From Candidatus Omnitrophota bacterium (GTDB lineage: Bacteria; Omnitrophota; Gorgyraeia; Zapsychrales; JANLHA01), in assembly GCA_963662715.1 (NCBI GenBank), contig OY759724.1:1380001-1412000 (forward strand): 32,000 nt of DNA, read 5' to 3'. This document shows, in pieces, positions 1,887 through 18,566 of this stretch. The notes under the pieces are model-generated. The model was not told the DNA's origin. It did not search any database and worked only from the letters and a program-made list of their open reading frames with translations. A program made the translations under genes and the position numbers. Positions within the stretch are counted from its first letter, which is position 1; each line of letters begins with the position of its first letter.

Positions 1887-1998
1887 AGCTTCAGTATAAG
1901 TATTAAAATTTTTTTTGCAAGCCCTTGTATTTCTCTATGGAGTAACATATGATTATGAAGATGGGTTATTATTCATAATAAAACAGGAGTTCTCTATT

Positions 1999-3237
1999 AT
2001 GCCTAAAAAACAAGTGACGGGGAATACTTCCTCCACCATTTCGCAAAAGGAAGAATTGACGATTCTCAGGCAAATTGTGGATATTACGTCTGCGGAAATG
2101 GATCTTTCCCGCATTTTAAAAGAAGTCGTTCACATCGTAAACCAGGTGATGAAGGCGGATTCGGTCTTTATTTATCTTTTTGACGAGGGCAAAAAGAAAT
2201 TAACTTTAATGGCGTCCAAAATCCCCCATAAAAAGATGCTGGGCCAGATTGTGCTTAAAGTCGGAGAAGGGATTACCGGATGGGTCGCCAAAGAAAATAA
2301 GCCGGTGGCCATCAGTAAAAACGCTTATCAGGATGCGCGTTTTAAAGGTTTCGATGTCCTGAAAGAGGACCAGTATGAAGCCTTTTTGTCCGTTCCGATC
2401 GTGTATAAAGGGAAAGCCATCGGGGTTATCAATGTTCAGCACAAAAAACCGCATCAGTATTCAACGCAGACAGTGAATTTAATACGCACAATCGCCAAAC
2501 AGGTGGGCGGGGTGATTGAGCATGCCATGCTTTATGAGCAGACCAAATTAAAGGCGATGCAGCTGGACAGTTTGGTCAAAGTAAGTCAATCCATTACGTC
2601 GGAGAATTATCTGGATGAAATTTTAAACTTGATTGTTGTTGTAACGGCGGAAATGCTGAATTCCAAAATTTGCTCTATCATGTTGCTGGGTGGCCACAAG
2701 CAGGAGGAACTGGTTATTAAGGCCACGCAGAGCTTAAGCCAGGAGTATAAGCAGAAGCCGAACCTGAAAGTGGACCGGAGCCTTTTGGGTGAAGTTATTA
2801 AACAGAAGCAACCCTTAATGGTCCCGGATGTGCGGGAAGAGCAAAAGTATTTTTACCGCGACTTGGCGGAGAAGGAGAATTTGACATCTATGATCGCCGT
2901 TCCCATGATTGTCAAAGATAAGGCCATCGGCGTCATCAACGTCTACACGAAAAAGCCGCATACCTTTACGGCCGAGGAAACCGGGGTGCTGCAGATGGTG
3001 GCTAACCAGGCGGCTGTGGCCGTGGAGAACACAAACTTGATGCAGGAGGCCTTAAAAGCCAAGGAGGCCCTGGAAACGCGCAAGTTGATCGAGCGAGCTA
3101 AAGGGATCCTGATGCGGTTAAACCATCTTTCTGAACAGGCGGCCTACCGGTTGATTCATAAAAAGAGCATGGATACCTGCCGGTCCATGAAAGAAATTGC
3201 CGAATCGATTATCTTGATGGATGAGCTGCAGGCCTGA
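1999..3237 (+). CDS. GAF-GAF-ANTAR one-component RNA-binding antitermination regulator (412 aa)
   Basis: I moved the start to ATG 1999 (AGGAG 9 nt upstream); the track ORF 1915.. only adds an unlikely extension. There are two GAF-like modules (...GEGITGWVAKENKPVAI...AIGVINVQHKKPH... and ...LLGEVIKQKQPLMVPDV...AIGVINVYTKKPH...). The C-terminus has a classic ANTAR segment: ETRKLIERAKGILMRLNHLSEQAAYRLIHKKSMDTCRSMKEIAESII. Confidence 0.9.
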   Translation: MPKKQVTGNTSSTISQKEELTILRQIVDITSAEMDLSRILKEVVHIVNQVMKADSVFIYLFDEGKKKLTLMASKIPHKKMLGQIVLKVGEGITGWVAKENKPVAISKNAYQDARFKGFDVLKEDQYEAFLSVPIVYKGKAIGVINVQHKKPHQYSTQTVNLIRTIAKQVGGVIEHAMLYEQTKLKAMQLDSLVKVSQSITSENYLDEILNLIVVVTAEMLNSKICSIMLLGGHKQEELVIKATQSLSQEYKQKPNLKVDRSLLGEVIKQKQPLMVPDVREEQKYFYRDLAEKENLTSMIAVPMIVKDKAIGVINVYTKKPHTFTAEETGVLQMVANQAAVAVENTNLMQEALKAKEALETRKLIERAKGILMRLNHLSEQAAYRLIHKKSMDTCRSMKEIAESIILMDELQA

Positions 3238-3341: not shown

Positions 3342-3370
3342 TTGACAAAAGGTTTTTCACAGTCTATATT
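3342..3370 (+). promoter_or_regulatory. Sigma70-like promoter of the porin-amt-glnK operon
   Basis: TTGACA (3342-3347), a 17-nt spacer, then TATATT (3365-3370), with AT-rich sequence upstream. It is nearly the same promoter as the one at 6624..6652 (shared AACTTGACAAA...TTTTTCA...TATAyT). Confidence 0.6.
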
Positions 3371-3373
3371 TGA

Positions 3374-3415
3374 AATAGACCATTGACGGTTTATTATAAC
3401 GGGCATCGAAGTCCG
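3374..3415 (+). promoter_or_regulatory. Candidate ANTAR-target dual hexaloop hairpins (leader 1, module 1)
   Basis: P1 is AGACC[AUUGAC]GGUUU at 3377-3392 and is extendable to 8 bp over 3374-3395. P2 is CGGGC[AUCGAA]GUCCG at 3400-3415. Both loops are 6 nt with A at position 1 and G at position 4. The 3' arm of P2 is the start of the terminator stem at 3411. Confidence 0.5.
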
Positions 3416-3442
3416 GATTCTTAGGTGAGTCCGGGCTTTTTT
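3411..3442 (+). terminator. Intrinsic terminator 1 in leader 1
   Basis: A 10-bp stem GUCCGGAUUC / GAGUCCGGGC (two G-U pairs) with loop UUAGGU, followed by UUUUUU (3437-3442). Confidence 0.65.
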
Positions 3443-3453
3443 GTTTATGCTAT

Positions 3454-3467
3454 GGGCGTTGAAGTCC
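3454..3467 (+). promoter_or_regulatory. GGGC-hexaloop-GUCC hairpin (leader 1, module 2)
   Basis: GGGC[GUUGAA]GUCC. Its last loop base and its 3' arm are the first 5 nt of the terminator stem that starts at 3463. Confidence 0.45.
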
Positions 3468-3505
3468 TCTTCAAGGCAGAAATTCTGCGGAAGAGGACTT
3501 TTTTT
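3463..3505 (+). terminator. Intrinsic terminator 2 in leader 1
   Basis: A perfect 10-bp stem AGUCCUCUUC (3463-3472) / GAAGAGGACU (3490-3499) with an inner 5-bp stem GCAGA/UCUGC, followed by UUUUUU (3500-3505). Confidence 0.7.
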
Positions 3506-3522: not shown

Positions 3523-3536
3523 GGGCGACGGGGTCC
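3523..3536 (+). promoter_or_regulatory. Fifth GGGC-hexaloop-GUCC hairpin, between terminator 2 and the porin start
   Basis: GGGC[GACGGG]GUCC. Its 3' side can alternatively pair as GGGUCCAG (3531-3538) / UUGGGCCC (3557-3564). No U-tract follows, so this copy is not attached to a terminator. Confidence 0.35.
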
Positions 3537-3615: not shown

Positions 3616-4383
3616 ATGAATCGTAAAATTTTAACCCTGACATTCGCCTTATGTGTGCTTGTTCTGTCCGGCCTCGCACCGCAAGCGGAAAGCAAAACCC
3701 TTGTCGGAGATGCGTTAACAGAAAATGGCATCGAAATAGAGCTCAGCGGCAGCACGGATTTTTATTCCAAATATATCTGGCGGGGATTCCGTTTAGATGA
3801 TGACTATGTCTGGCAGCCGGGATTCAGCGTAAGCGGTTACGGATTTGAGGTCAATGTCTGGGGAAGCTTTGACACGGACCAAAACGACGGATTAAGTTCG
3901 GATGAAATTGACACAACAGTCAGTTACAGCCGTGATTTTGAAGACCTGTCTTTGTCCATCGGACACATTTACTATGATTTCCCCTCCGCCGGCACTTTCA
4001 GCAAGGAAATTTTTCTCGGTTTTGCTTATGACACCTTGCTTGCACCCTCGCTGACCTGGTATCACGATTACAGCCGGGAAAGTCAGGGGGGCGGACACGG
4101 TGATTATTTTGTCTTGGATCTCGGACACAGCCTGGAGCTTAATGAAGACTATGGCGTGACTTTGGATCTTGCCGGTCATGTCGGATACAACCGCCGCCTT
4201 TTCATTAACGGGGAAGGCGGGGATGTGGCTTTCAGTGTGGGGCTGACGCTGCCTTTGACGGAAAGTTTAACCATGACGCCCAGTTTGAATTACAGCATAC
4301 CTTACGGCGACCTGGAAGATTCTGGAGACGGTAATCAGGAAGACGAGTTTTACTGGGGTATCGGGTTAAGTTATAGTTTCTAA
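3616..4383 (+). CDS. TorF / Gcw_chp (TIGR02001-like) outer-membrane beta-barrel protein, putative porin
   Basis: AAGGAG SD. Signal peptide MNRKILTLTFALCVLVLSGLAPQAES. An N-terminal ...SKYIWRGFRL...QPGFSVS..GFEVNVWGS... pattern matches my memory of the family signature (SdYvfRG...Q.g......Gf..g.W.S). It has alternating beta-strand character and a C-terminal ...GLSYSF aromatic OMP terminus. Confidence 0.7.
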   Translation: MNRKILTLTFALCVLVLSGLAPQAESKTLVGDALTENGIEIELSGSTDFYSKYIWRGFRLDDDYVWQPGFSVSGYGFEVNVWGSFDTDQNDGLSSDEIDTTVSYSRDFEDLSLSIGHIYYDFPSAGTFSKEIFLGFAYDTLLAPSLTWYHDYSRESQGGGHGDYFVLDLGHSLELNEDYGVTLDLAGHVGYNRRLFINGEGGDVAFSVGLTLPLTESLTMTPSLNYSIPYGDLEDSGDGNQEDEFYWGIGLSYSF

Positions 4384-4439: not shown

Positions 4440-5828
4440 ATGTTAATAAAATTGTTAAAGAATATGCCGATGCTTGTTTTTTTGCTGAGCATGGGATTGC
4501 TGCTTTGTGCCAGCCCTGGTTTGGCTGAAGAGCCGACCGTGGCAGGGAATGCGGAAGCCATTGCGGAAAAAGGCGTGGCTTTGGACACGGTGTGGACATT
4601 GTTGGCCGGTATTCTGGTTATGTTCATGCAGGCGGGTTTTGCTATGGTCGAGACGGGTTTTACCCGGGCGAAGAACGCCTGTAATATCATGATGAAAAAC
4701 TTGTTGGATTTTGCTGTCGGTTCGATCGTGTATTGGGCCGTAGGTTTCGGGATTATGTTCGGGGCCGGGAACTTGTTCTTTGGATCAAGCGGCTTTTTCC
4801 TGATGGATTCAGGGGCGACCTTTGCGTCCTTAGACTGGAGTACGGTGCCTCTTTATTGTAAATATTTCTTCCAGATGGTTTTTGCCGCTACGGCAGCGAC
4901 CATTGTTTCCGGGGCGATGGCCGAACGGACAAAATTTCAGGCCTACCTTCTTTTCAGTGTGGTTATCAGCGCTCTTATTTATCCGGTTGTCGGTCACTGG
5001 ATATGGGGCGGCGGCTGGTTAGCGGAAATGGGAATGTGGGATTTTGCCGGTTCAACGGTTGTCCATTCAACCGGAGCCTGGGTGGCCTTGACGGGGGCTA
5101 TTTTGTTAGGGCCCCGGGTCGGAAAATATAATCCGGATGGCTCATCCAATGCGATTCCCGGTCACAGCATCCCCTTAGCTTCTTTAGGTGTTTTTATCCT
5201 TTGGTTTGGCTGGTACGGTTTTAATCCGGGCAGCACCATGGGCGCTGTTCCGGAGATAGCGCATATCGCGACAACGACAACGTTAGCCGCCGCTGCCGGT
5301 GTTATTTCGGCCATGTATATGGCGTGGATCATGTTTTCCAAACCGGATATTTCCATGGCTTTAAACGGCGGTTTGGCAGGTTTGGTCGGCATTACGGCCG
5401 GATGTGCTTTTGTTTCACCGTTGAGCGCCGTGATCATCGGCCTTATTGCCGGCATCCTGGTGGTTCTGGCTGTTGTTATGTTTGATAAAGTTTTTCATAT
5501 TGATGATCCTGTCGGTGCCGTATCTGTCCACGGCGTCTGCGGGGCCTGGGGCACGATTGCTGTCGGTTTGTTTGCCCAGGATGTTTTTGCCCCGGGGACA
5601 ACGGGCAATGGTCTGTTCTTTGGCGGCGGAAGCAAACTGCTTATGTCTCAGATCGCAGGGGTTGCTTCGGTTATGGTCTGGTGTTTTGTGACCGGATTTA
5701 TCCTTTTCTCGGTGATTAAAGCAACGGTCGGATTGCGGGTCAGCAAGGAAGAAGAACTGAGAGGTCTGGATATAGACGAACACGGGATGGAAGCTTACTC
5801 CGGGTTCCAGATTTTCACGACAGAATAA
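4440..5828 (+). CDS. amt: Ammonium transporter (Amt family), copy 1
   Basis: GGAAGGAGG SD and a signal-like N-terminus. Amt hallmarks are present: DTVWTLLAGILVMFMQAGFAMVETG, YPVVGHWIWGGGWL, FAGSTVVH, NPGS, DDPVGAVSVHG. Confidence 0.95.
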   Translation: MLIKLLKNMPMLVFLLSMGLLLCASPGLAEEPTVAGNAEAIAEKGVALDTVWTLLAGILVMFMQAGFAMVETGFTRAKNACNIMMKNLLDFAVGSIVYWAVGFGIMFGAGNLFFGSSGFFLMDSGATFASLDWSTVPLYCKYFFQMVFAATAATIVSGAMAERTKFQAYLLFSVVISALIYPVVGHWIWGGGWLAEMGMWDFAGSTVVHSTGAWVALTGAILLGPRVGKYNPDGSSNAIPGHSIPLASLGVFILWFGWYGFNPGSTMGAVPEIAHIATTTTLAAAAGVISAMYMAWIMFSKPDISMALNGGLAGLVGITAGCAFVSPLSAVIIGLIAGILVVLAVVMFDKVFHIDDPVGAVSVHGVCGAWGTIAVGLFAQDVFAPGTTGNGLFFGGGSKLLMSQIAGVASVMVWCFVTGFILFSVIKATVGLRVSKEEELRGLDIDEHGMEAYSGFQIFTTE

Positions 5829-6029: not shown

Positions 6030-6098
6030 GAAATGCCTCTTCGGCAGGATCTTATTAAATTAGGGATCAGATATTTGATATTAAAGGAGGGGATTCTC

Positions 6099-6440
6099 AT
6101 GAAATTGATAATTGCAATGGTACAGCCGCATAAGCTGCCTGATGTCAAGAAGGAGCTTTTTGATGCGGATGTTCATAAAATGACTGTTACGAATGTTGTG
6201 GGGTGTGGGCAACAGAAAGGGTTCAGCGAAACCTATCGGGGCGTTGTCCACGAAGTGAATCTTTTGAAGAAAGTCCGGCTGGAAATTGCCGTGAACGAAG
6301 ATTTTGTCAAGCCTACGATTGCTGCTATTATCCGCGGAGCGAAATCCGGCAAGATCGGAGACGGCAAAATTTTTGTCCTTGATCTTCCGGAATGTATCAG
6401 GATTCGTACCGGCGAGAAAGGCAATGACGCCATCGGCTGA
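6099..6440 (+). CDS. glnK: PII nitrogen regulatory protein (GlnK type, amt-linked), copy 1
   Basis: The start is set at ATG 6099 (AGGAGG upstream); the track ORF 6033.. is an upstream extension. The protein is 113 aa and aligns without gaps to canonical PII (MTVT, GxGxQKG, YRG, KVxxE, GDGKIF, RIRTGE). Confidence 0.95.
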
Positions 6441-6488
6441 CGTCCTTTGGTAAGGAGGGACACCGGCCTAGGTCAAAATGATATTCCC

Positions 6489-6575
6489 TATGGCCCCGTT
6501 GAGAGGCACAGAGCTTCCCCTCCGTGAAACATTCCTGAGATTATATCTTGGGAGAAATCTCTTAACGGGGCCATA
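6489..6575 (+). other. 87-nt extended hairpin / long inverted repeat downstream of glnK1
   Basis: 6489-6506 pairs with 6558-6575 over 18 consecutive bp (16 Watson-Crick plus 2 G-U; the core is ATGGCCCCGTT / AACGGGGCCAT). It encloses 51 nt with further small stems. There is no clean U-tract after it. Confidence 0.45.
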
Positions 6576-6623
6576 TTCTCGTTTAGCGGTGTACGTTATT
6601 GGGTCAGAAGACGTAAAAAAAAC

Positions 6624-6652
6624 TTGACAAACAATTTTTCAGCGAGTATACT
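6624..6652 (+). promoter_or_regulatory. Sigma70-like promoter of the second amt-glnK operon
   Basis: TTGACA (6624-6629), a 17-nt spacer, then TATACT (6647-6652), with an A-run upstream. It is a paralogue of the promoter at 3342..3370. Confidence 0.6.
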
Positions 6653-6660
6653 TTTTTTAA

Positions 6661-6705
6661 CAAGAGCAACGAGGTTCTTGTGTAATTTAGCGGGCAAAGA
6701 TGTCC
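6661..6705 (+). promoter_or_regulatory. Candidate ANTAR-target dual hexaloop hairpins (leader 2, module 1)
   Basis: P1 is CAAGAGC[AACGAG]GUUCUUG at 6661-6680 (7 bp, one G-U). After an 11-nt linker, P2 is GGGC[AAAGAU]GUCC at 6692-6705. Both hexaloops have A at position 1 and G at position 4. The 3' arm of P2 overlaps the terminator stem. Confidence 0.5.
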
Positions 6706-6740
6706 TCAATAGGCTTAAGATAAGCCGTTGAGGATTTTTT
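6702..6740 (+). terminator. Intrinsic terminator 1 in leader 2
   Basis: Stem (G)UCCUCAA 6702-6709 / UUGAGGA(U) 6728-6735 with an inner stem GGCUU/AAGCC, followed by a U-run to 6740. Confidence 0.6.
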
Positions 6741-6751
6741 ATTGATGATAA

Positions 6752-6765
6752 GGGCATAGGCGTCC
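6752..6765 (+). promoter_or_regulatory. GGGC-hexaloop-GUCC hairpin (leader 2, module 2)
   Basis: GGGC[AUAGGC]GUCC. Its loop and 3' arm form the first 8 nt of the terminator stem that starts at 6758. Confidence 0.45.
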
Positions 6766-6803
6766 TTGTTAAGCGAAGAAGCTTTTCAAGGGCGCCTTTT
6801 TTT
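6758..6803 (+). terminator. Intrinsic terminator 2 in leader 2
   Basis: An 11-bp stem AGGCGUCCUUG (6758-6768) / CAAGGGCGCCU (6787-6797) with one G-U, and an inner hairpin AAGC[GAAGAA]GCUU, followed by UUUUUU (6798-6803). Confidence 0.7.
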
Positions 6804-6839
6804 ATTAATACACGGAGTCTTTTCAGGAGGGGAGGCCGT

Positions 6840-8177
6840 ATGAAAAAAGGAAAAAGGGTTAAACAGTGGGGGATTCTTGCATTTGTTCTGTGTTGCCTTT
6901 GTCCCACGCTCGCTTATGCGGAAGAAACAATCACAATCAGTACAGCCGGGTTGGACACGTTATGGGTTATGATCGCTGCATTCATGGTTTTCATTATGCA
7001 GGCAGGGTTCGGTATGCTGGAGGCCGGATTGATCCGGACAAAAAACACCTGTAATGTTCTTATGAATAATTTTTTGGATTTTTGTATGGCTTCTATGGGA
7101 TTTTTTATGTTTGGCTTTGCCCTGATGTTCGGGGCCGGAAACGGTTTTATCGGGACCAAGGGTTTTTTCCTGATTGATGCCGTATCTGACGGGCATTTAC
7201 CTTTATATGCAGAATGGTTTTTTCATGCGGTTTTCTGCGGAGCAGCAGCGACAATCGTTGCTGGCGGGGTTGCTGAGAGAATGAAATTTAAAGCTTACTT
7301 AATGTATTCGTTTATTATTTCTGCCACCGTTTATCCCGTTGTCGGGCACTGGATTTGGGGGGGAGGATGGCTTTCGAACCTGAATTTTGCCGATTTTGCC
7401 GGTTCAACCGTGGTCCATGCTGTCGGAGGCACGGCGGCTTTGGCCGGAACATATGTTTTGGGGCCGAGGATAGGGAAATACAACAAGGACGGGTCGGCGA
7501 ATGCGATTGAAGGGCATTCTATGACACTGGCATCTTTAGGGACATTAATTCTTTGGTTCGCCTGGTTTGGTTTTAATCCCGGCTCAACGTTAAGCGTCGG
7601 GGACGGAAGCGCCATCGCGCACGTTGCGGTTACGACGAATATGTCCGCTGTCGCCGGAGGTTTAACCGGCATGTTCTTTGCCTGGCATAAGTTCGGCAAG
7701 CCTGATTTGACCATGACCATGAACGGAGCTTTGGCCGGTTTAGTGGCGATTACGGCTCCCTGCGCTTTTGTGACCCCTTTAGAGGCGATTGTTATCGGGT
7801 CTATCGGCGGGATTATTGTCGTCATTGGCACGATTTTTCTGGATAAAATTCATATTGATGATCCGGTCGGCGCTGTTCCTGTTCATGCCATGAACGGCTT
7901 ATGGGGGACTTTGGCGGTCGGTATTTTTGGACACAAATCTTTAGGCTTGGCCAGAGACGGATTGCTGCACGGCGGCGGTTTTGCGCAGCTTGGCGTGCAG
8001 GCTTTGGGCGTTGTGACCGTTATGCTCTTTGTCGGCACGGTGATGCTTGTCGTCTTTAAAGCGCTTGATCATTTTGTCGGGTTACGGGTGACTCGGGAGG
8101 AAGAACTGAAAGGGTTGGATATCAGCCTGCACGGCATGGAAGCCTACTCCAGTTTTCAGGTTTTTACAACGCAATAA
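6840..8177 (+). CDS. amt: Ammonium transporter (Amt family), copy 2
   Basis: AGGAGGGGAGG SD and a signal peptide. It carries the same Amt hallmarks as copy 1 (MQAGFGMLEAG, YPVVGHWIWGGGWL, FAGSTVVH, DDPVGAVPVH) and a C-terminal ...GMEAYSSFQVFTTQ parallel to copy 1. Confidence 0.95.
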   Translation: MKKGKRVKQWGILAFVLCCLCPTLAYAEETITISTAGLDTLWVMIAAFMVFIMQAGFGMLEAGLIRTKNTCNVLMNNFLDFCMASMGFFMFGFALMFGAGNGFIGTKGFFLIDAVSDGHLPLYAEWFFHAVFCGAAATIVAGGVAERMKFKAYLMYSFIISATVYPVVGHWIWGGGWLSNLNFADFAGSTVVHAVGGTAALAGTYVLGPRIGKYNKDGSANAIEGHSMTLASLGTLILWFAWFGFNPGSTLSVGDGSAIAHVAVTTNMSAVAGGLTGMFFAWHKFGKPDLTMTMNGALAGLVAITAPCAFVTPLEAIVIGSIGGIIVVIGTIFLDKIHIDDPVGAVPVHAMNGLWGTLAVGIFGHKSLGLARDGLLHGGGFAQLGVQALGVVTVMLFVGTVMLVVFKALDHFVGLRVTREEELKGLDISLHGMEAYSSFQVFTTQ

Positions 8178-8229
8178 AAAATTTATGAAAGATAGGCTTC
8201 AGTGATCTTTATTAAAGGAGGGGAATGAT

Positions 8230-8571
8230 ATGAAGCTGGTTATAGCTATGATACAACCGCATAAACTGCCGGATGTAAAAAAGGCTTTGTTTGATGCTGA
8301 TGTGCATAAAATGACCGTCACCAATGTTCTCGGATGCGGTCAGCAGAAAGGGTTCAGCGAAACCTACCGGGGTGTCGTTCATGAAGTGAATCTGTTGAAA
8401 AAAGTCCGGCTGGAAATTGCCGTGAACGAAAATTTCCTGGACGCCACCATCAAAGCCATTATTAAAGGGGCTAAAACAGGAAAGATCGGGGACGGGAAGA
8501 TTCTGGTCCTTGATTTACAGGACTGTATCAGGATCCGGACCGGAGAAAAAGGGCGGGAGGCCATAGGATAA
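8230..8571 (+). CDS. glnK: PII nitrogen regulatory protein (GlnK type), copy 2
   Basis: AAGGAGGGG SD. The protein is 113 aa. I count 16 differences from copy 1 across 113 positions. Confidence 0.95.
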
Positions 8572-8705
8572 TGTTCGTTGCCGTTTTTATCAGTGTTGGC
8601 ATTGTTGTGGGTGTTTCCCTGGCCATAAAACATTTTTGGCGACGGGTATTTTATACAAGAGAGGATCTCGTTAATGCTTTAAAACGTAATTTTAACGAAT
8701 CGTAG
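8571..8705 (+). CDS. Candidate 44-aa single-TM small protein translationally coupled to glnK2
   Basis: Its ATG overlaps the glnK2 stop (TAATG, 8569-8573), and GGGAGG lies 10 nt upstream. Translation: [44 protein letters not shown] (one TM helix plus a charged tail). It is below the ORF-track size cutoff. Confidence 0.4.
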   Translation: MFVAVFISVGIVVGVSLAIKHFWRRVFYTREDLVNALKRNFNES

Positions 8706-8744
8706 AGGAATGCCGTTGTGCAGAGCAGGGAAAGGAGAAGAGAT

Positions 8745-8843
8745 ATGTCGACGTTGGTTATGCATAAGGGGAACGGAACACCAAAGACCCCGGAAGATGT
8801 TGTAAAGCTTGTCAAAGAAAACAGTCTTTATTTTGATGTCTAA
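8745..8843 (+). CDS. 32-aa ORF resembling the extreme N-terminus of type I glutamine synthetase (a relic or a small/leader peptide)
   Basis: GGAG lies 7 nt upstream of ATG 8745. Translation: MSTLVMHKGNGTPKTPEDVVKLVKENSLYFDV. The ..EDVVKLVKEN..YF.. segment recalls GS-I N-termini such as ..[19 protein letters not shown].. (from memory). No GS-like continuation appears in any frame downstream. Confidence 0.3.
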   Translation: MSTLVMHKGNGTPKTPEDVVKLVKENSLYFDV

Positions 8844-8975
8844 CCATTAACAACAAGACAGGACTTTGAGTCCTAAAAACATTTCCTCTTTGGAGCTTCA
8901 TTGCTTATAATATTCCCTGAAAAAGGGGGACAACAAAGAAGCCTTATTTGAGGAAATGTTAAAACGGAGGGGAAA

Positions 8976-11081
8976 ATGGAAGAAATGTACGAACAAAAAA
9001 CAAACCAAACTGTTGCTGAGATTTACGGTCAGAATGTTTTCAGCCTCAAGGTGATGCGCAATTACCTGTCGGAGAAAGCGTATCAATCCTTGAGCAAAAC
9101 CATCAAAGACGGCGGGCCTCTTGATCCGGGGATTGCTGATGAAGTCGCCGATGCCATGAAAACATGGGCGATTTCAAAAGGGGCGACTCATTTTACGCAC
9201 TGGTTTCAGCCCTTAACGGGAACGACGGCCGAAAAACACGACTCCTTTATTGCTCCGGACGGAGAGGGCGGCGTGATACTGGAATTTTCCGGGAAGGAAT
9301 TGATCCAGGGCGAACCGGATGCCTCGAGTTTTCCTTCCGGGGGATTGCGTCCCACATTTGAAGCCAGAGGGTATACAGGATGGGACCCGACAAGTCCGGC
9401 CTTTATCAAGGAAGGGCCACAATGCGCTACGTTATGTATTCCGACCTATTTCATCGGGTGGAACGGCGAAGCTTTGGATAAGAAATCACCTCTTCTTCGC
9501 TCCATGAAAGCCCTTTCCAAGCAGGTTTGTCGGTTAGCCGAAATTTTCGGCATCTCCACGAGAGGTAAACGGGCTTACGCCACTTTAGGCGGTGAGCAGG
9601 AATATTTTCTGATCGACAAGGAGTTTTATCTGCAGCGCATTGACCTGGTTCAAACAGGCCGTACGCTCTTCGGCAAAGAACCGGCCAAGCATCAACAGAT
9701 GGCCGATCATTATTTCGGCGCCATCAAAGGCCGGGTCATGGGATTCATGGAAGATTTTGACCGGGAGATGTGGAGGCTGGGCGTTCCGACCACCACGCGT
9801 CATAATGAAGTGGCGCCGGGGCAGTATGAAGTGGCGCCGGTTTTTGAAAGTCTGAACCTGGCGGTTGATCACAACATGCTTTGTATGGAAGTGATGAAAC
9901 GCGTCGCAGAGAAACATGGCATGGTCTGTCTTTTGCATGAAAAGCCATTTGCCGGCATCAACGGGTCGGGCAAGCATAATAACTGGGCTATTGTCGGGCC
10001 TGATGGAAAGAACTGGCTGGATCCGGGTGATAACCCTCATGAAAATGCCAAGTTCCTCGTCATGCTCTGCGCCGTCATCAAAGCCGTGGATACTTACGCC
10101 GAAGCTTTACGCGCTTCCGTGGCCTCTGCCGGAAACGATCATCGTCTGGGGTCTCATGAAGCGCCTCCGGCGATTATCTCCATATTTTTAGGCGAACAGT
10201 TAACGGATATCATTGAACAGATTGAGAAAGGGGAAGCCAAGAGCTCGAAATCCGGCGGTGTTTTGGAAATAGGCGTGGATTCTCTGCCGACCCTGCCGAG
10301 GCACGCGACGGACCGCAACCGGACATCCCCGTTTGCCTTTACGGGTTCCAAATTTGAATTTCGTGCCGTGGGTTCCAACATGAGCCTCGCCGGGCCGAAC
10401 ATTATTCTCAATACGATTGTGGCTGACGCTCTGGATGAGATCTGTTCGAAGTTGCAGCGAGACCTGTCGGCGAAGAAGGACCTGAACAGCGCTATTCAGA
10501 AAGTTTTAAAGAGTATTATCAAAGAGCATAAGAGAATTATCTTTAACGGCGATAATTATACGGAAGACTGGCTGAAGGAAGCGACCAAGCGAAAACTTCC
10601 GAATTTGAAAACAACCCCCGAAGCTTTGGCGGCTATGAAGAATCCGGATGTCGTGGCTCTTTTTGAACGTCATGGTGTCTTGAGCAAAAAAGAGCTGATG
10701 TCCCGCAATGAAGTTTATCTGGAAGGGTACAACACAACGATTGATTACGAAGCCAAACTTGCCGCGGACATGGCCAAGACCCTGATTTTCCCGGCTGTCT
10801 TTAATTATCAGGAGGAATTGGCTAACAGCATTAAGTCAGCGGAGGCCGTCAATAAAGTTAAATCCCCTGCCGCCCGGAAGTTGCTTTTGGAAATCACCAA
10901 AGAATTGGAGACAGCTTTGAAGAAAACGGATAAGCTGGAGGGCGCTATCCGCAAGGCTGACAGCTTAAAAACCAAAGCGGCTATGGATGACTTGCGCGTG
11001 ACCGTAGACCGTTTGGAGGGCTTGGTTCCTGCTGATTACTGGCCGTTACCGTCTTACGCCGAAATGCTGTTTATTGTTTAA
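8976..11081 (+). CDS. glnN: Glutamine synthetase type III (GlnN)
   Basis: The 701-aa length is typical of GS-III. It has the N-terminal ..[26 protein letters not shown].. region, the [10 protein letters not shown] and [13 protein letters not shown] motifs, NGSGKHNNW, and a long C-terminal helical extension. Confidence 0.93.
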
Positions 11082-11102
11082 TTGAGTGGTTTTTTAAGAA
11101 AA

Positions 11103-11144
11103 ACCCTGGGGTCATCTGAGCGTGATTTGTCAGATGGCTCCAGG
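11103..11144 (+). other. Stable 16-bp stem-loop in the glnN-amidotransferase intercistronic region
   Basis: CCCUGGGGUCAUCUGA (11103-11118) pairs with UCAGAUGGCUCCAGGG (11129-11144): 16 bp including two G-U pairs, with a 10-nt loop. No U-tract follows. A smaller hairpin, GGUUUU/AAAACC (11088-11104), overlaps its 5' side. Confidence 0.45.
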
Positions 11145-11156
11145 GTGTCACTATGT

Positions 11157-11879
11157 ATGATCTTGTTTATCAAACATATCGATATCGAAGGCCCGGAAAC
11201 CCTGGGAGCCTTTTTCTCTCGGCAGGGGTATCGGACCGGTATCGTTGAAGTCTGGAAAGGAGAGCCTCTGCCTTCTGATGTGAGCCGTTTGCAGGCTGTT
11301 GTGGCTTTAGGCGGCCCGATGAATGTTTATGAAGAGGATGCCTGCCCCTTTTTAAAAGAGGACCATGTTTTTATTCAAAGGATTTTAGAACAGAATATCC
11401 CCTTCCTGGGGATTTGTTTGGGTTCCCAGCTTTTGGCCAAAGCCTGCGGCGCGAAAGTCTATAAAGCCCCGGAGCAGGAAATAGGGTTTTATCCCGTTGA
11501 GTTAACCGGGCCGGGTCAGCAGGACCCTCTTTTTGCCGGGCTGCCGGAGCGACTGGAGGTTTTTCAGTGGCATGGAGATACTTTTGATATTCCGCAGGGA
11601 GGCGTTTTGTTGGCTTCCGGAGGCTCCTGCCGGCATCAGGCTTTTCGCATAGGCCCTGTTGCTTACGGCTTGCAGTTTCATATTGAAATTACGGAGAAAA
11701 GCATTAGGGACTGGTCTGATGCGTATTTCCAGCCGCTTGATGATACGCATAAAAGGAAAAAAACGGAGATGCTGGCTGATTATGCCGGAAAGAAAGAAAA
11801 ATTTTGTAAGACGGCAGATAAGATATATAATAATCTATTAAAAATTATTCAGAAAAATAAAGTCAACACATTATCCTGA
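11157..11879 (+). CDS. Class I (triad) glutamine amidotransferase, stand-alone GuaA-N-like domain protein
   Basis: The start is set at ATG 11157, because the track start TTG 11082 would translate the hairpin region. It has the nucleophile elbow GICLGSQLL and a His/Glu pair in GLQFHIE. The overall layout is COG0518-like. Confidence 0.8.
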   Translation: MILFIKHIDIEGPETLGAFFSRQGYRTGIVEVWKGEPLPSDVSRLQAVVALGGPMNVYEEDACPFLKEDHVFIQRILEQNIPFLGICLGSQLLAKACGAKVYKAPEQEIGFYPVELTGPGQQDPLFAGLPERLEVFQWHGDTFDIPQGGVLLASGGSCRHQAFRIGPVAYGLQFHIEITEKSIRDWSDAYFQPLDDTHKRKKTEMLADYAGKKEKFCKTADKIYNNLLKIIQKNKVNTLS

Positions 11880-12069: not shown

Positions 12070-13749
12070 ATGATACGAATTGCTTTAGCCCAAATGAATG
12101 CCATTGTCGGTGATCTGGAAGGAAACCGGCAGAAAATTTTGCAGTTTATCCGGCAGGCCAGGGATAATGACGCTGATATGGTGATTTTCCCTGAACTGGC
12201 TGTTTGCGGATATCCGCCGGAGGACCTGCTGTTTAAGGACCATTTTGTCCAAGACAGCCTTAAGGCTTTAAAGGCGTTGAGTAAAGACGTTTCCGATATC
12301 ACCGTTGTTGTCGGTTATGTTGATCAGGATCAGAAGAAAAATATTTATAATGCTGCGGCTGTTATTCAGGATAAAAAAATCTGCGGCCGATATTTTAAAC
12401 AAAAATTACCCAATTACGGCGTGTTTGATGAAAAGCGTTACTTCACGGAAGGGCAGGAGAATTCATCCTTTCAGCTCAACGGAATTGTTTTCGGTCTCAG
12501 TATTTGCGAGGATCTCTGGACGGATGGGCCTTTGTTGAAACAGCAGATCAAACAGAAATTACAGCTTGTCGTGAATCTGGCCGCTTCTCCCTATGACTAC
12601 GGGAAACTCGAACAGCGGGAAAAAATTCTCAAGGACAGAGCCCGCCGGACGAACGCGTATGTCTGTTATTCCAACCTTGTGGGAGGCCAGGATGAGCTTG
12701 TTTTTGACGGAGGAAGCGTTATCGTCAATCAGCAGGGCCGGATCATTGCTCAGGGGAAGCAGTTTGAAGAAGATCTGGTTGTCGTGGACCTGCCTTTGAA
12801 CCCGGTGGCCAAGAAAAGAAGATCCCCGCAGGGGTGCATTGACCTGGGGGTGAAGACCAAGACCTTGAAATGTCCTTTAATACCGCATAAAGAGCGGCGG
12901 TACAGCCGCATGGAACGGGTTTTTCATGCTTTGGTGTTAGGGACGCGTGATTATGTCAGGAAAAACGGTTTCCAAAAAGTCGTTATAGGTTTAAGCGGGG
13001 GGATTGATTCCTCTTTGGTGGCCGCCGTCGCCTCGGAAGCTGTCGGGCATGAAAATGTTATCGGCATCTCCATGCCGTCTCATTTCACGTCTTCCGGCAC
13101 AAAAAAAGACGCTAAGATTCTGGCGGAGAATTTGAAGATAAAGTTTATTGAGATTTCTATTGAGCGAATTTTTAAAGCTTATCTGGATGAATTAGCCGTG
13201 CATTTTTCCGGCCTGCCGTTTAATGTGGCCGAGGAAAATATTCAGGCCCGTATTCGGGGAAATATTTTAATGGGATTTTCCAATAAGTTCGGCTGGCTGG
13301 TTTTGAACACAGGGAATAAAAGTGAAGTGGCTGTGGGGTACTGCACCCTTTATGGCGATCTGGCCGGAGGGTTTGCGGTGATAAAGGATATCCCTAAGAT
13401 GCAAGTTTTTAAATTGGTTAAATTTATAAACAGCAAGCATGCCGTTGTCCCGGAAACGGTCTTGACCAGGGCGCCTTCTGCCGAATTGCGAAACGATCAG
13501 AAAGATCAGGATACCCTGCCTCCCTATGAAGAATTGGACCGCCTGCTGAAGGCCTATGTCGAACAGCATCATTCTTTGATTCAGATGCAGAAAATCAGTA
13601 AGAACAAGGCGAAAATCCAGGATATTATTCGTATGGTGGACCAGAGTGAATATAAACGCCGGCAATCCCCCCCGGGGATAAAAATATCTACCCGGGCTTT
13701 CGGAAAAGACTGGCGGCTGCCCATTACAAACGGATATAGAGAGGATTGA
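12070..13749 (+). CDS. nadE: Glutamine-dependent NAD+ synthetase (CN-hydrolase domain plus NAD synthetase domain)
   Basis: The N-terminal nitrilase-type domain has MIRIALAQMN.., FPELAVCGYPPEDL and ICEDLW. The C-terminal domain has the PP-loop GLSGGIDSS and the conserved ..YKRRQSPPGIK.. tail. Confidence 0.92.
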   Translation: MIRIALAQMNAIVGDLEGNRQKILQFIRQARDNDADMVIFPELAVCGYPPEDLLFKDHFVQDSLKALKALSKDVSDITVVVGYVDQDQKKNIYNAAAVIQDKKICGRYFKQKLPNYGVFDEKRYFTEGQENSSFQLNGIVFGLSICEDLWTDGPLLKQQIKQKLQLVVNLAASPYDYGKLEQREKILKDRARRTNAYVCYSNLVGGQDELVFDGGSVIVNQQGRIIAQGKQFEEDLVVVDLPLNPVAKKRRSPQGCIDLGVKTKTLKCPLIPHKERRYSRMERVFHALVLGTRDYVRKNGFQKVVIGLSGGIDSSLVAAVASEAVGHENVIGISMPSHFTSSGTKKDAKILAENLKIKFIEISIERIFKAYLDELAVHFSGLPFNVAEENIQARIRGNILMGFSNKFGWLVLNTGNKSEVAVGYCTLYGDLAGGFAVIKDIPKMQVFKLVKFINSKHAVVPETVLTRAPSAELRNDQKDQDTLPPYEELDRLLKAYVEQHHSLIQMQKISKNKAKIQDIIRMVDQSEYKRRQSPPGIKISTRAFGKDWRLPITNGYRED

Positions 13750-16900: not shown

Positions 16901-18566
16901 GGGAGGCCAGTTGCCCGGCCATAAAGTCAGCAAAGCGATTGCCAAAACGCGCTACACGACCCCGGGGGTCGGGCTTATCTCTCCGCCTCCGCATCACGAT
17001 ATTTATTCGATTGAAGATCTGGCCCAGCTGATTTATGACTTGAAAAACGCGAATTGTCATGCTGATGTGTCGGTCAAGCTTGTTTCGGAAATCGGTGTCG
17101 GAACCATTGCGGCCGGGGTATCCAAGGGGAAGGCAGATCATCTGCTGATCAGCGGGTTTGAAGGCGGGACAGGGGCTTCTCCTCAGACATCGATCAAAAA
17201 TGCCGGGTTGCCCGTGGAGCTCGGTATCGCCGAAACGCAGCAGGTTCTTGTTATGAATGACCTGCGCGGACGTATCCGCGTGCAGGTCGACGGCCAGATG
17301 AAAACCGGCCGGGATGTCATTATTGCCGGAATGCTCGGGGCGGATGAGTTCGGTTTTTCCACGGCCGCGCTCATAACGATGGGGTGCATCATGCTGCGGA
17401 AATGTCATCTCAATACATGCTCGGTGGGGGTTGCCACCCAGGATCCGGAACTGCGGAAACGTTTTTCCGGAAAACCGGAGCATGTGGTGAACTTTTTTAA
17501 GTTTGTTGCCGAGGAAGTCAGGGAAATCATGGCCGAACTGGGTTTCCGTAAATTTGAGGACCTGATCGGGCAGGTGAATATGCTGCAGACGCAGGACGTT
17601 ATTGACCATTGGAAAGCCAGAGGCATTGACCTGACGCATGTCTTGCATAAACCGGACGTCCCCCGGCACATTGCCGTGCGTCACGCAGGGAAACAACAGC
17701 ATGCTCTGGAAAAGGCTTTGGACAACCGGCTGATCGAGAGCAGCCGGGATGCCATAGAAGACAAGAAGGTTGTAAAATTTGATTCTCAGATCAGGAATAT
17801 TCACCGCACTGTCGGCACTATGCTCAGCGCGGAGATCGCCCGTCGCTACGGTTTGGCGGGGTTGCCGGAAGATACGATTCAGATCACCTTTTTCGGTTCC
17901 GCCGGACAGAGTTTCGGCGCCTGGTTGTCACGGGGCGTGACCTTCAGGCTGGAAGGGGATTCTAACGATTATCTGGGGAAAGGATTGTCAGGAGGAAAGA
18001 TTGTTGTTTATCCTCCCAAGGGATCAAGCTTTGTGCCGGAAGAAAATATTCTGATCGGCAATGTGGTCTTGTACGGCGCGATCTGCGGTGAAGCCTATTT
18101 CCGCGGGGTGGCCGGCGAACGTTTTGCTGTCCGCAACAGCGGAGCGCGGGCTGTTGTGGAAGGCATCGGGGACCACGGATGTGAATATATGACCGGCGGA
18201 CGCATTGTTGTCCTGGGGCCGACGGGACGGAATTTTGCCGCCGGGATGAGCGGCGGTATCGCCTATGTCTGGGACCGTGACGGCGACTTTGACGTCCGGT
18301 GCAATACTGGGATGGTTCAGCTGTTCCCGGTCGAAGAACCAGGGGATATTCAAGAATTGAAAACCCTGATTGAAAATCACGCCCGTTATACGGACAGCGC
18401 CGTGGCCCGTGATGTTCTGGACCGGTGGGAGGAAGCGCTGCCGCAGTTTGTTAAGGTTTATCCTGAAGATTACCGCCGGGTGTTGGAAGAGGCCAGGCAG
18501 GCGGCTCAGTTTCCCGATGAGGATGAAGCCGTGGGGTATGATCCGGCGACCAGGGAAGGAAACTGA
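13998..18566 (+). CDS. gltB: Glutamate synthase large subunit
   Basis: 1522 aa. It has the Ntn amidotransferase start ..[11 protein letters not shown].., the central and FMN-binding domains (..[10 protein letters not shown].., ..[12 protein letters not shown]..), the Cys cluster [13 protein letters not shown], and the C-terminal GXGXG-repeat domain. Confidence 0.97.

What the first reader, a model, noticed from the sequence alone, without database searches (positions are those of the whole stretch)
6661..6803. Leader 2: the same two-module architecture upstream of the second amt-glnK operon
Directly visible in the sequence:
- About 9 nt after the TTGACA-17-TATACT promoter (6624-6652) lies P1, CAAGAGC[AACGAG]GUUCUUG (6661-6680).
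- After an 11-nt linker comes P2, GGGC[AAAGAU]GUCC (6692-6705).
- The 3' arm of P2 is part of the terminator stem UCCUCAA/UUGAGGA (6703-6734) plus U6.
- 11 nt after that U-tract, GGGC[AUAGGC]GUCC (6752-6765) overlaps the 5' arm of an 11-bp terminator (6758-6797) plus U6.
- All loops here have A1/G4.

Geometry matches leader 1 closely: P1 at the TSS, P2 = GGGC-N6-GUCC, a terminator, an 11-nt gap, a second GGGC-N6-GUCC, and a second terminator.

Scanning every GGGC in the 32-kb window by eye, I found GTCC at the +6 offset only at these five leader positions (3401, 3454, 3523, 6692, 6752). The chance expectation per GGGC is 1/256.
Basis: partly seen in the sequence, partly recalled or inferred. 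Interest (0 to 1): 0.7.

Follow-up and report, generated by a model that had tools for sequence, protein, structure and literature searches.

The report
ANTAR-controlled double terminator before amt-glnK
The leader of the second ammonium-transporter operon carries two transcription terminators in a row, each overlapped by a small hairpin of the kind bound by ANTAR antiterminator proteins. One such protein, with two GAF sensor domains, is encoded 3.4 kb upstream, so this is a known type of nitrogen switch in an unusual tandem layout.

Summary
GGGC-N6-GTCC occurs five times in the window, all on the + strand and all in the two amt leaders.

Leader 2 (6624-6803) consists of:
- a sigma-70-type promoter;
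- P1, 8 bp with loop AACGAG;
- a 10-nt linker;
- P2, loop AAAGAU, overlapping terminator T1;
- P2', which extends to 10 bp, loop AUAGGC, overlapping terminator T2.

These are target hairpins for ANTAR antiterminator proteins (hexaloop with A1/G4, 3' arm shared with a terminator). A GAF-GAF-ANTAR protein that keeps the RNA-contact residues of EutV is encoded at 1915-3237.

In 755 kb around 90 homologues of that protein, mostly Candidatus Omnitrophota, I found 58 distinct hairpin-plus-terminator modules. With no constraint on the loop, G4 is invariant (58/58) and position 1 is always a purine.

Module 1 is a canonical dual-hexaloop site. Module 2 has no upstream partner hairpin. The apex of T2 is itself a G1/G4 hexaloop, and it is conserved in the only direct orthologue. 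Across relatives, apex hexaloops replace P1 when P1 is absent.

ANTAR sites before amt/P-II genes were predicted in 2012, so the kind is known. The tandem layout, the permuted layout and the GAF sensor are the new parts. Binding and the signal are inferred, not shown.

The parts
1915..3237 (+). Gene for the GAF-GAF-ANTAR protein, the proposed antiterminator. The ORF runs from the first possible start at 1915. The identical database protein P0001 has 412 aa, which would put the start at about 1999.
   Evidence: Pfam: two GAF domains plus ANTAR at residues 382-433, E = 1.3e-20. The ANTAR domain aligns to EutV (6WSH, E = 1.8e-10) and keeps R142, K143, E146, K149, E160, Y164 and M172. GAF1 is closest to the PtsP/EI-Ntr GAF domain and GAF2 to the NifA GAF domain. 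P0001 is 100% identical.
3342..3505 (+). Leader 1, the paralogous leader before Gcw-amt1-glnK1. It has a promoter, P1 (3374-3395), P2 (3401-3414) with T1, and P2' (3454-3467) with T2. A third hairpin at 3523-3536 has no U-run.
6624..6652 (+). Sigma-70-type promoter of leader 2: TTGACA, 17 nt, TATACT.
   Evidence: 11 of 12 positions. In the orthologue L086 the -35 and -10 hexamers are kept while the spacer has diverged. The same TTGACA...TATAnT precedes nearly all related leaders.
6660..6681 (+). P1, an 8-bp hairpin with hexaloop AACGAG (6668-6673; A1, G4). It starts at about the predicted transcription start.
   Evidence: -9.4 kcal/mol. Covariation over 16 related P1 hairpins: 94.5% of cells paired, 7 of 8 pairs changed on both sides, 0 of 500 shuffles as good. 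In L086 the stem is identical and the loop is AAUGAA.
6692..6705 (+). P2, GGGC[AAAGAU]GUCC, the antiterminator of T1. Its 3' arm (6702/6703-6705) is the base of the 5' arm of T1.
   Evidence: 3-nt overlap.
6703..6740 (+). Terminator T1: stem 6703-6734 (8 bp, a one-base bulge, then 6 bp) plus U6 at 6735-6740.
   Evidence: (-18.7 kcal/mol, z = -6.6).
6746..6771 (+). P2', the antiterminator of T2. The core is GGGC[AUAGGC]GUCC (6752-6765) and it extends to 10 bp. The 3' half of its loop and its 3' arm lie in the 5' arm of T2.
   Evidence: -11.4 kcal/mol; 7-nt overlap.
6758..6803 (+). Terminator T2: 11-bp basal stem (6758-6768 with 6787-6797), an apical 4-bp hairpin, and U6-7 at 6797-6803.
   Evidence: -26.6 kcal/mol, z = -6.8. 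Between the window and L086 one pair changes on both sides (G-C to A-U) and two pairs change on one side while staying paired.
6771..6784 (+). Apical hairpin of T2, AAGC[GAAGAA]GCUU, with a G1/G4 hexaloop. It is a candidate second ANTAR-binding loop for module 2.
   Evidence: The hairpin is identical in L086. In relatives, apex R1/G4 hexaloops occur in 16 of 26 first modules without P1, 2 of 23 modules with P1, and 28 of 411 control terminators.
6840..8571 (+). The regulated genes: amt2 (6840-8177) and glnK2 (P-II, 8230-8571).
   Evidence: Pfam: Ammonium_transp E = 7.5e-129, P-II E = 3.4e-27.

Best explanation
Leader 2 is a transcription attenuator controlled by an ANTAR-domain antiterminator protein.

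Proposed sequence of events:
1. Transcription starts at about 6659-6660 from the promoter at 6624-6652.
2. Without the protein, the RNA folds into T1 and, for any polymerase that escapes, T2. Little transcript reaches amt2-glnK2.
3. When the protein is active, its ANTAR domains bind the hexaloops. The G at loop position 4 stacks on the conserved tyrosine.
4. Binding holds P2 closed (with P1 as the partner loop) and then holds P2' closed. The 5' arms of T1 and T2 are then unavailable, and the polymerase reads through.

The most likely protein is the GAF-GAF-ANTAR protein encoded at 1915-3237, acting as a dimer.

Two terminators in series multiply the off-state stringency and sharpen the response.

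For module 2, the partner loop is probably the G1/G4 hexaloop at the apex of T2. That hairpin forms in both conformations and sits directly 3' of P2'.

The activating signal is probably nitrogen limitation (high 2-oxoglutarate and/or low glutamine), sensed by the GAF domains.

What is shown and what is inferred:
- Shown: the structures, their mutual exclusivity, their conservation, and their association with the ANTAR gene.
- Inferred: binding, the direction of regulation, and the signal.
For: 1. Anatomy. P1 and P2 have hexaloops with A1/G4 and a 10-nt linker. The 3' arm of P2 is shared with T1, and the loop and 3' arm of P2' are shared with T2. This is the ANTAR substrate defined for EutV, NasR and AmiR, where natural linkers are 5-12 nt (PMC3369931).

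2. Energetics. The terminators are much more stable than the antiterminator hairpins, so a trans-acting stabiliser is needed.

3. The regulator.
- The ANTAR protein gene lies 3.4 kb upstream, directly before leader 1.
- It keeps the EutV residues that contact G4 and the loop.

4. Comparative data from 86 sources (755 kb) around homologues of that protein.
- GGGC-N6-GTCC occurs 88 times on the gene strand and 8 times on the other strand.
- With no constraint on the loop, 58 distinct modules with an overlapping terminator have G4 in 58/58, position 1 as A in 52 and G in 6, and A5 in 51/58.
- Their stems are GGGC/GUCC in 41, GGAC/GUCC in 12 and GGGC/GCCC in 5.
- 65% of hairpin hits pass a terminator-overlap test, against 1.6-1.8% of random positions or generic hairpins.

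5. Covariation in P1.

6. The orthologous leader in L086.
- It keeps all helices.
- Its loops change only at positions other than A1 and G4.
- T2 shows one G-C to A-U double change.

7. Downstream genes in relatives are amt-glnK, GS type III and a small ORF, a coherent nitrogen regulon.

8. Precedents.
- Geobacter GnfR (REC-ANTAR) antiterminates nifH, and the same conserved CAGGCAANGGCGCC element (a GGC[AANGGC]GCC hairpin overlapping a terminator-like signal) precedes its glnK and amtB genes (PMC2995071).
- Covariance-model searches in 2012 found ANTAR hits upstream of 'ammonium transporter; P-II' in several genomes.

9. The GAF domains are closest to the PtsP/EI-Ntr and NifA GAF domains. From my own knowledge, both of those sense glutamine and/or 2-oxoglutarate.
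Against: - There is no experimental data: no transcription start site, no 3' ends, no binding assay.
- Module 2 has no upstream P1. In EutV, deleting P1 abolished induction.
- The idea that the T2 apex is the partner loop rests on one orthologue and on a trend across relatives. That trend is significant for first modules without P1, but not for later tandem modules (4 of 26 against 6.8% in controls, p = 0.11).
- Orthologous leaders are not independent, so the p-values are optimistic.
- Hairpins and terminators were found by pairing or folding, which inflates the paired fractions.
- The genome is about 3.4 Mb and may encode other ANTAR proteins that I could not see.
- Similarity of GAF domains does not fix the ligand.
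- Rfam has no hit, so no curated model supports membership.
Confidence: 0.82

Rival explanations
1. The leader is an ANTAR-type attenuator, but it is served by a different ANTAR protein encoded elsewhere in the genome, for example a REC-ANTAR response regulator such as GnfR or NasT. The neighbouring GAF-GAF-ANTAR protein would then have other targets.
For: In Geobacter, a REC-ANTAR two-component regulator (GnfR) is the inferred antiterminator of the glnK-amtB leader, which carries the conserved GnfR element. I could inspect only 32 kb of a genome of about 3.4 Mb.
Against: The hairpin modules were found by anchoring on homologues of the GAF-GAF-ANTAR gene. In most loci they start immediately downstream of it, on the same strand. 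No other ANTAR protein is encoded in the window.
Confidence: 0.1
2. The leader is a metabolite-sensing riboswitch, for example for glutamine, or some other protein-independent attenuator.
For: It sits in the leader of a nitrogen operon and has alternative terminator and antiterminator structures.
Against: No Rfam family matches at gathering score. Weak hits (PyrR 19 bits against a cut-off of 54, L10 leader and others) reflect only the generic shape of a hairpin followed by a terminator. The conserved parts are 14-nt hairpins whose only invariant loop bases are R1 and G4, which is too little for a ligand pocket. The antiterminator hairpins are 13-15 kcal/mol weaker than the terminators. The elements co-occur with an ANTAR gene.
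Confidence: 0.03
3. T1 and T2 are constitutive tandem terminators that insulate the second operon from the first, or a repeated element. The small hairpins would be incidental.
For: Two strong terminators lie 300-360 nt downstream of glnK1. Leader 2 is absent in the relatives at 84% identity, where amt2 follows glnK1 by 65 nt.
Against: The terminators lie downstream of a conserved promoter and 36 nt upstream of the amt2 start, so they would silence amt2 unless overridden. G4 is invariant, position 1 is always a purine, and the strand bias is strong. Neither is expected of incidental hairpins.
Confidence: 0.03
4. GGGC-N6-GTCC is a DNA operator for a transcription factor acting at or near the promoter.
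For: It is a repeated short motif with partial dyad symmetry near promoters.
Against: The stem needs a G-U pair, which exists only in RNA. The motif is not a true DNA palindrome. Its occurrence is strongly strand-specific (88 against 8). Sites lie downstream of the start point and overlap terminator stems. The stem variants GGAC/GUCC and GGGC/GCCC keep the pairing rather than the sequence.
Confidence: 0.02

Closest known systems
EutV-eutP leader of Enterococcus faecalis, the ANTAR dual-hexaloop antiterminator (Ramesh et al. 2012, PMC3369931; Walshaw et al. 2022, PMC8934654)
   Same: Both have two hairpins with hexaloops carrying A1 and G4. The linker falls in the 5-12 nt range. The 3' arm of P2 is shared with an intrinsic terminator. 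The closing C-G pair is conserved. The ANTAR domain keeps the residues that contact G4.
   Different: The regulator here has two GAF domains instead of a phospho-receiver domain, so there is no partner kinase. Two terminators sit in tandem within one leader. The second module has no upstream P1. The target genes are amt-glnK rather than eut.
GnfK/GnfR system of Geobacter sulfurreducens (Ueki and Lovley 2010, PMC2995071)
   Same: Both involve ANTAR-mediated antitermination of nitrogen genes. In Geobacter the leaders carrying the element include an operon with glnK and amtB, though antitermination itself was demonstrated for nifH. The conserved element CAGGCAANGGCGCC is a GGC[AANGGC]GCC hairpin with A1/G4 that overlaps the terminator, much like GGGC[ANNGAN]GUCC here.
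   Different: GnfR is a response regulator in a cascade that depends on RpoN. Here the promoters are sigma-70-like and the regulator is a one-component GAF protein. No tandem arrangement was described for GnfR in the passages I read.
[quoted passage not shown]
   Same: The target genes are of the same kind and the RNA motif is the same. The motif was predicted by a covariance model and required an overlapping terminator.
   Different: Those hits come from other phyla. Each is listed as a single dual-hairpin site. The regulators are mostly REC-ANTAR proteins.
NasR-nasF leader (Klebsiella) and AmiR-amiE leader (Pseudomonas)
   Same: Both are one-component ANTAR antiterminators for nitrogen-related operons, and both recognise a hexaloop with A1/G4.
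   Different: Their sensor domains are NIT, or the AmiC partner protein, rather than GAF-GAF. Each leader has a single terminator.
Tandem riboswitches and tandem attenuators (general principle; from my own knowledge)
   Same: Two regulated terminators in series in one leader give multiplicative, sharper control.
   Different: Here the sensor is a protein and the two modules appear to respond to the same factor.

Membership tests
ANTAR target RNA (dual-hexaloop antiterminator) | Two adjacent stem-loops, P1 and P2 | tested here: met
   Module 1 has P1 at 6660-6681 and P2 at 6692-6705. Module 2 has no upstream P1. Its only candidate partner is the T2 apex hairpin at 6771-6784, on the 3' side.
ANTAR target RNA (dual-hexaloop antiterminator) | Six-nucleotide loops with A at position 1 and G at position 4 | tested here: met
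   The loops are AACGAG, AAAGAU and AUAGGC. Across 58 related modules G4 is 58/58 and position 1 is A in 52 and G in 6, with no loop constraint in the search.
ANTAR target RNA (dual-hexaloop antiterminator) | Short linker between the two hairpins (5-12 nt in natural eut sites; 3 nt and 14 nt both impair induction) | tested here: met
   The linker is 10 nt (6682-6691), or 11 nt counted from the 7-bp form of P1. The published range is from PMC3369931.
ANTAR target RNA (dual-hexaloop antiterminator) | The 3' side of the second hairpin overlaps the 5' arm of an intrinsic terminator | tested here: met
   P2 and T1 overlap by 3-4 nt. P2' and T2 overlap by 7 nt. Both terminators are followed by U6-7.
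ANTAR target RNA (dual-hexaloop antiterminator) | An ANTAR-domain protein is encoded in the genome | tested here: met
   The GAF-GAF-ANTAR gene at 1915-3237 has ANTAR at E = 1.3e-20. The EutV RNA-contact residues are conserved.
ANTAR target RNA (dual-hexaloop antiterminator) | The ANTAR protein binds the RNA, and read-through depends on the protein | not testable with these tools
   This needs EMSA or SPR and in vitro transcription or reporter assays.
Geobacter GnfR-type element | Conserved CAGGCAANGGCGCC overlapping the terminator, with a REC-ANTAR regulator | tested here: not met
   The hairpin shape and A1/G4 are shared, but the sequence differs (GGGC[ANNGAN]GUCC) and the neighbouring regulator has GAF domains, not a REC domain. 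It works alike but is not the same subfamily.
Curated Rfam cis-regulatory families (glutamine riboswitch, PyrR site, ribosomal-protein leaders and others) | A score at or above the family's gathering threshold | tested here: not met
   The window has no match at gathering score. The best sub-threshold hits are PyrR at 19.1 bits against 54 and L10_leader at 15.4 against 44.

The most novel reading that the evidence does not exclude
In this clade the 'dual hexaloop' rule for ANTAR binding is kept but permuted. When no P1 lies upstream, the partner hexaloop is the apex of the terminator itself. The protein dimer would then clamp the antiterminator hairpin to a hairpin that exists in both conformations.

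In leader 2 this would make T2 a self-contained unit of this kind (P2' plus the apex GAAGAA), placed directly behind a canonical P1-P2-T1 unit.

If so, these would be natural single- and permuted-hexaloop antiterminators acting during transcription. That would bear directly on the successive-binding model proposed for EutV. It would also define a phylum-wide nitrogen regulon in Omnitrophota driven by a one-component GAF sensor.
Probability: 0.4. Interest if true: 0.55.

Novelty: new variant of a known kind. Interest (0 to 1): 0.42.

Why it matters
ANTAR antitermination is a widespread way of controlling nitrogen genes, but it has been studied in only a few systems, all with a single dual-hairpin site per terminator.

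This locus and about 60 related modules offer three things:
- A natural series of layouts: canonical, tandem double and triple, and sites with no P1 where the terminator apex supplies the second loop. These can test whether one or two hexaloops are needed during transcription, a question the 2022 structural paper left open.
- A first concrete target set for the uncharacterised GAF-ANTAR class of regulators. GAF-ANTAR proteins were noted as uncharacterised in 2012, and I found no later study.
- A readable nitrogen regulon (amt-glnK, GS type III, a small ORF) in Candidatus Omnitrophota, a phylum with no cultured members.

For this single leader the practical value is a clear, testable prediction of how amt2-glnK2 is switched.

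Tried and rejected
- **Rfam.** I searched at gathering threshold over the whole window and at E up to 10 over both leaders. Nothing useful came back. The weak PyrR, L20 and L10 hits only mirror terminator shapes.
- **Whole-leader alignment.** A MAFFT alignment of 16 leaders with RNAalifold recovered P1, P2' and the upper stem of T2. It misaligned the window's own leaders and the variable terminators. I therefore analysed the helices one at a time, in fixed register.
- **Terminator-arm pair counts.** I prepared the terminator-arm alignment A4 but did not count pairs on it. The arms came from minimum-energy folds, so pairing would be circular.
- **T1 apex as a P1 for module 2.** I considered that the apex of T1 might serve as the partner loop for module 2. 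In the window the T1 apex is a tri- or pentaloop (AGA / AAGAU), so I rejected the idea for this leader. It does fit some relatives (L009, L014, L036, L065).
- **More modules in the window.** I looked before the ANTAR gene, the NAD synthase gene, GOGAT and GS III. There are none, only a degenerate hairpin before GS III.
- **The built-in terminator scan.** It missed T1 and T2 of leader 2 because of their bulges and internal loops. Folding shows both clearly.
- **Not built.** I did not build a covariance model. The regex counts and their controls already gave decisive numbers.
Full report
**1. The observation**

- The promoter is TTGACA-17-TATACT at 6624-6652, matching 11 of 12 consensus positions.
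- P1 is CAAGAGC[AACGAG]GUUCUUG at 6661-6680. One more A-U pair makes it 6660-6681.
- The linker is 10-11 nt.
- P2 is GGGC[AAAGAU]GUCC at 6692-6705.
- T1 pairs UCCUCAA with UUGAGGA (6703-6734), has an inner GGCUUA/UAAGCC stem, and is followed by U6.
- After an 11-nt gap comes GGGC[AUAGGC]GUCC at 6752-6765.
- T2 is an 11-bp terminator (6758-6797) followed by U6.

The regex GGGC-N6-GTCC has exactly five matches in the 32 kb, on both strands taken together. All are on the + strand and all lie in the two amt leaders. Shuffles give a mean of 1.18, and 1 of 100 reaches five.

Folding shows that termination is the default state.
- The minimum-energy structure of the leader is P1 + T1 + T2, at -58.6 kcal/mol with z = -6.5.
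- T1 is -18.7 and T2 is -26.6 kcal/mol.
- P2 is -5.6 and the second small hairpin is -11.4 kcal/mol.

Two details were missed.
- The second GGGC/GUCC hairpin extends to 10 bp (6746-6771).
- The apex of T2 is itself a hexaloop hairpin, AAGC[GAAGAA]GCUU (6771-6784).

**2. What it is**

The gene context is a nitrogen-assimilation island:

| Coordinates | Gene product |
|---|---|
| 1915-3237 | GAF-GAF-ANTAR protein |
| (3342-3505) | leader 1 |
| 3616-4383 | Gcw_chp protein |
| 4440-5828 | Amt |
| 6033-6440 | P-II |
| (6624-6803) | leader 2 |
| 6840-8177 | Amt |
| 8230-8571 | P-II |
| 8976-11081 | glutamine synthetase type III |
| 11082-11879 | class-I glutamine amidotransferase (GATase) |
| 12070-13749 | NAD synthase |
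| 13998-20114 | GOGAT large and small subunits |
| 27470-31920 | carbamoyl-phosphate synthase (farther downstream) |

The ANTAR substrate was defined for EutV, NasR and AmiR (PMC3369931).
- It has two small hairpins with six-base loops carrying A at position 1 and G at position 4.
- A short linker separates them.
- The 3' arm of the second hairpin is shared with an intrinsic terminator.

Module 1 of leader 2 meets each of these criteria.

The neighbouring protein has a clear ANTAR domain. It aligns to EutV with R142, K143, E146, K149, E160, Y164 and M172 conserved. Those are the residues shown to contact G4 and position the loop (PMC8934654).

**3. Comparative evidence**

I fetched homologues of the GAF-GAF-ANTAR protein with flanking DNA.
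- 5 genome loci came from Candidatus Omnitrophota MAGs or MAGs labelled Planctomycetales.
- 80 came from metagenomes.
- 7 came from the closest database relatives.

The strand, loop and control counts below were made on the first 86 sources (755 kb); the later module lists also include the seven loci.

Strand bias and loop conservation:
- GGGC-N6-GTCC occurs 88 times on the gene strand and 8 on the other.
- I then searched GG[GA]C-N6-G[TC]CC with no constraint on the loop and required an overlapping terminator. This gave 58 distinct modules.
- In these, loop position 4 is G in 58/58. Position 1 is A in 52 and G in 6. Position 5 is A in 51.
- The stem is GGGC/GUCC in 41, GGAC/GUCC in 12 and GGGC/GCCC in 5. 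The third pair therefore varies G-U, A-U or G-C while staying paired.

Controls and covariation:
- The terminator-overlap criterion is met by 65% of hairpin hits. It is met by 1.6-1.8% of random positions or generic 4-bp hexaloop hairpins.
- P1 hairpins from 16 leaders covary: 94.5% of cells are paired, 7 of 8 pairs change on both sides, and 0 of 500 shuffles do as well.
- One caveat applies. The hairpins were located by their pairing, so the paired fraction is biased upward.

Downstream genes are amt-glnK, GS III and a small ORF.

**4. The direct orthologue of leader 2**

Only L086, whose ANTAR protein is 86% identical, has a leader between glnK1 and amt2. In the relatives at 84% identity (L087-L090), amt2 follows glnK1 by 65 nt with no leader.

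In the window-L086 alignment:
- The -35 and -10 hexamers are conserved while the spacer has diverged.
- All helices are retained.
- The loops change only outside A1 and G4 (AACGAG to AAUGAA, AAAGAU to AAUGGU, AUAGGC to AAAGAC).
- T2 has one G-C to A-U double change and two single changes that keep pairing.
- The T2 apex hairpin AAGC[GAAGAA]GCUU is identical.

**5. Architecture across relatives**

One search sorted 40 distinct leaders by layout.

| Layout | Number of leaders |
|---|---|
| Single hairpin + terminator, no P1 (in most the hairpin starts 13-21 nt, typically 16, after the -10 hexamer) | 18 |
| P1 + two modules (two of these carry a third hairpin, as leader 1 does) | 16 |
| Two or three modules, no P1 | 4 |
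| Canonical P1 + one module | 2 |

The tandem layout of leader 2 is therefore a conserved design. The canonical form is the minority.

Spacing between successive hairpins is 51-69 nt, with one outlier of 98 nt. That is close to the tightest packing a terminator allows.

**6. An unplanned finding**

Terminators attached to these hairpins often carry a second R1/G4 hexaloop at their apex.

| Class of terminator | With a central R1/G4 apex hexaloop |
|---|---|
| First modules with no P1 | 16 of 26 |
| Modules preceded by a P1 | 2 of 23 |
| Later tandem modules | 4 of 26 |
| Other terminators in the same loci | 28 of 411 (6.8%) |

- Fisher tests give p = 2.4e-4 for no-P1 against with-P1, and p = 1.8e-11 for no-P1 against controls.
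- In the orthologous small-ORF leaders the apex loops read AAUGUG, AAGGUG, AAGGCG, AGGGUA, AGUGAU and AGGGUU. A1 and G4 stay fixed while the other positions drift.
- This suggests that a partner hexaloop is still needed, and that it can sit either upstream (P1) or in the terminator apex.
- For leader 2 the nascent RNA 6741-6786 folds into two abutting hexaloop hairpins, P2' and the apex. The same holds in L086.
- The evidence for this particular module is weaker. Later modules as a class are not significantly enriched (p = 0.11). Related leaders are also not independent observations. By my own inspection of the sequences listed, not by a formal clustering, there are about eight independent sequence families.

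**7. Mechanism**

- Shown: the alternative structures, their mutual exclusivity, the conservation of exactly the bases ANTAR domains recognise, and the linkage to an ANTAR gene.
- Inferred: the protein binds P1 and then P2, blocking T1, and then binds P2' (perhaps together with the T2 apex), blocking T2.
- Inferred: two terminators in series multiply the stringency.
- Inferred: the signal is nitrogen limitation. GAF1 is closest to the PtsP/EI-Ntr GAF domain (3CI6, E = 2.8e-22). GAF2 is closest to the NifA GAF domain. From my own knowledge, both respond to glutamine and/or 2-oxoglutarate. amt-glnK operons are typically induced when nitrogen is scarce.
- Background: the 2022 EutV structure redefined the minimal motif as a single hexaloop. 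It proposed successive binding from P1 to P2, and left the role of single hexaloops open.

**8. Comparison with known systems, and novelty**

- ANTAR control of nitrogen genes, including amt and P-II, is established or predicted.
- The closest experimentally studied case is Geobacter GnfR. Its conserved element CAGGCAANGGCGCC is the same kind of hairpin.
- I found no description of three features: two or three ANTAR-controlled terminators stacked in one leader, modules without P1 whose partner loop lies in the terminator apex, and a GAF-GAF sensor in place of a receiver domain.
- GAF-ANTAR proteins were noted as uncharacterised in 2012. My literature searches found no later characterisation and nothing on Omnitrophota.
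- I therefore rate this a new variant of a known kind. It is of moderate interest to specialists and ordinary in its general logic.

**9. Rivals**

- A different ANTAR protein encoded elsewhere in the genome could be the regulator. I cannot exclude this from 32 kb.
- A riboswitch is unlikely: there is no Rfam hit, the conserved core is tiny, and the antiterminators are weak.
- Constitutive insulating terminators would silence amt2 and would not explain the invariant G4.
- A DNA operator is excluded by the G-U pair, the strand bias and the stem variants that preserve pairing.

Noticed in passing
window 3523-3536 (and on to about 3590); L006 3344, L007 7547, L086 about 9497, L087 about 9571: Leader 1 has a third hairpin, GGGC[GACGGG]GUCC, after T2 with no U-run behind it. 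It is conserved in the closest relatives (loops AUGGGG or GACGGG) and is followed by a conserved stretch ACGAGCAAAGAC...GGGCA upstream of the Gcw_chp gene. Its role is unknown; it could be a further ANTAR site acting on something other than an intrinsic terminator.
   Followed up: partly
window 6489-6575; L086 12276-12362: A long, stable hairpin lies between glnK1 and the leader-2 promoter. Its basal stem is about 18 bp and differs in sequence between the two genomes, but pairs in both. An internal stretch, GAGCUUCCCCUCCGUGAAA, is conserved. It may be the terminator or 3' element of the first operon, or a small RNA.
   Followed up: partly
window 8859-8875 (intergenic between glnK2 and GS III, 8572-8975): Many relatives carry a promoter plus one GGGC[ANNGAN]GUCC + terminator module before GS III (for example L003 13727, L050 9817, L069 9743). 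The window has only AGGAC[UUUGA]GUCCU, with a 5-nt loop and no terminator. This looks like a decayed site, so GS III here may have left the regulon.
   Followed up: partly
L087-L090 (for example L087 12298-12363), compared with window 6441-6839: In the relatives at 84% identity, amt2 follows glnK1 by only 65 nt with no leader 2, and no glnK2 follows amt2. Leader 2 (with glnK2 in the window only) is present only in the window and L086. The attenuator was therefore gained or lost recently.
   Followed up: yes
L002 15909, L003 11736, L004 2587, L026 7670 and others: In one large group of relatives, P2 has an 8-nt loop (AAUGAUAU, AUUGAUAA, AAUGGUAU). A1 and G4 are kept. It may close to a hexaloop through an A-U pair.
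   Followed up: no
L036 7303-7460; L016 4961-5190; L030 7315-7500: Some relatives stack three hairpin-plus-terminator modules in one amt leader.
   Followed up: partly
L002 15533-15750, L003 11422-11640, L004 2277-2490: In most relatives a small conserved ORF lies between the ANTAR gene and the amt leader. Its C-terminus reads ...EDW..AE.IV. It is often preceded by its own single module, whose terminator apex is an A1/G4 hexaloop. The window has no such ORF.
   Followed up: partly
window 6033-6440: The mechanical ORF for glnK1 is 135 aa, and the P-II domain starts at residue 23. Relatives call a 113-aa protein, so the true start is probably about 22 codons downstream. Likewise the ANTAR gene probably starts near 1999 (database protein of 412 aa), not at 1915.
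   Followed up: partly
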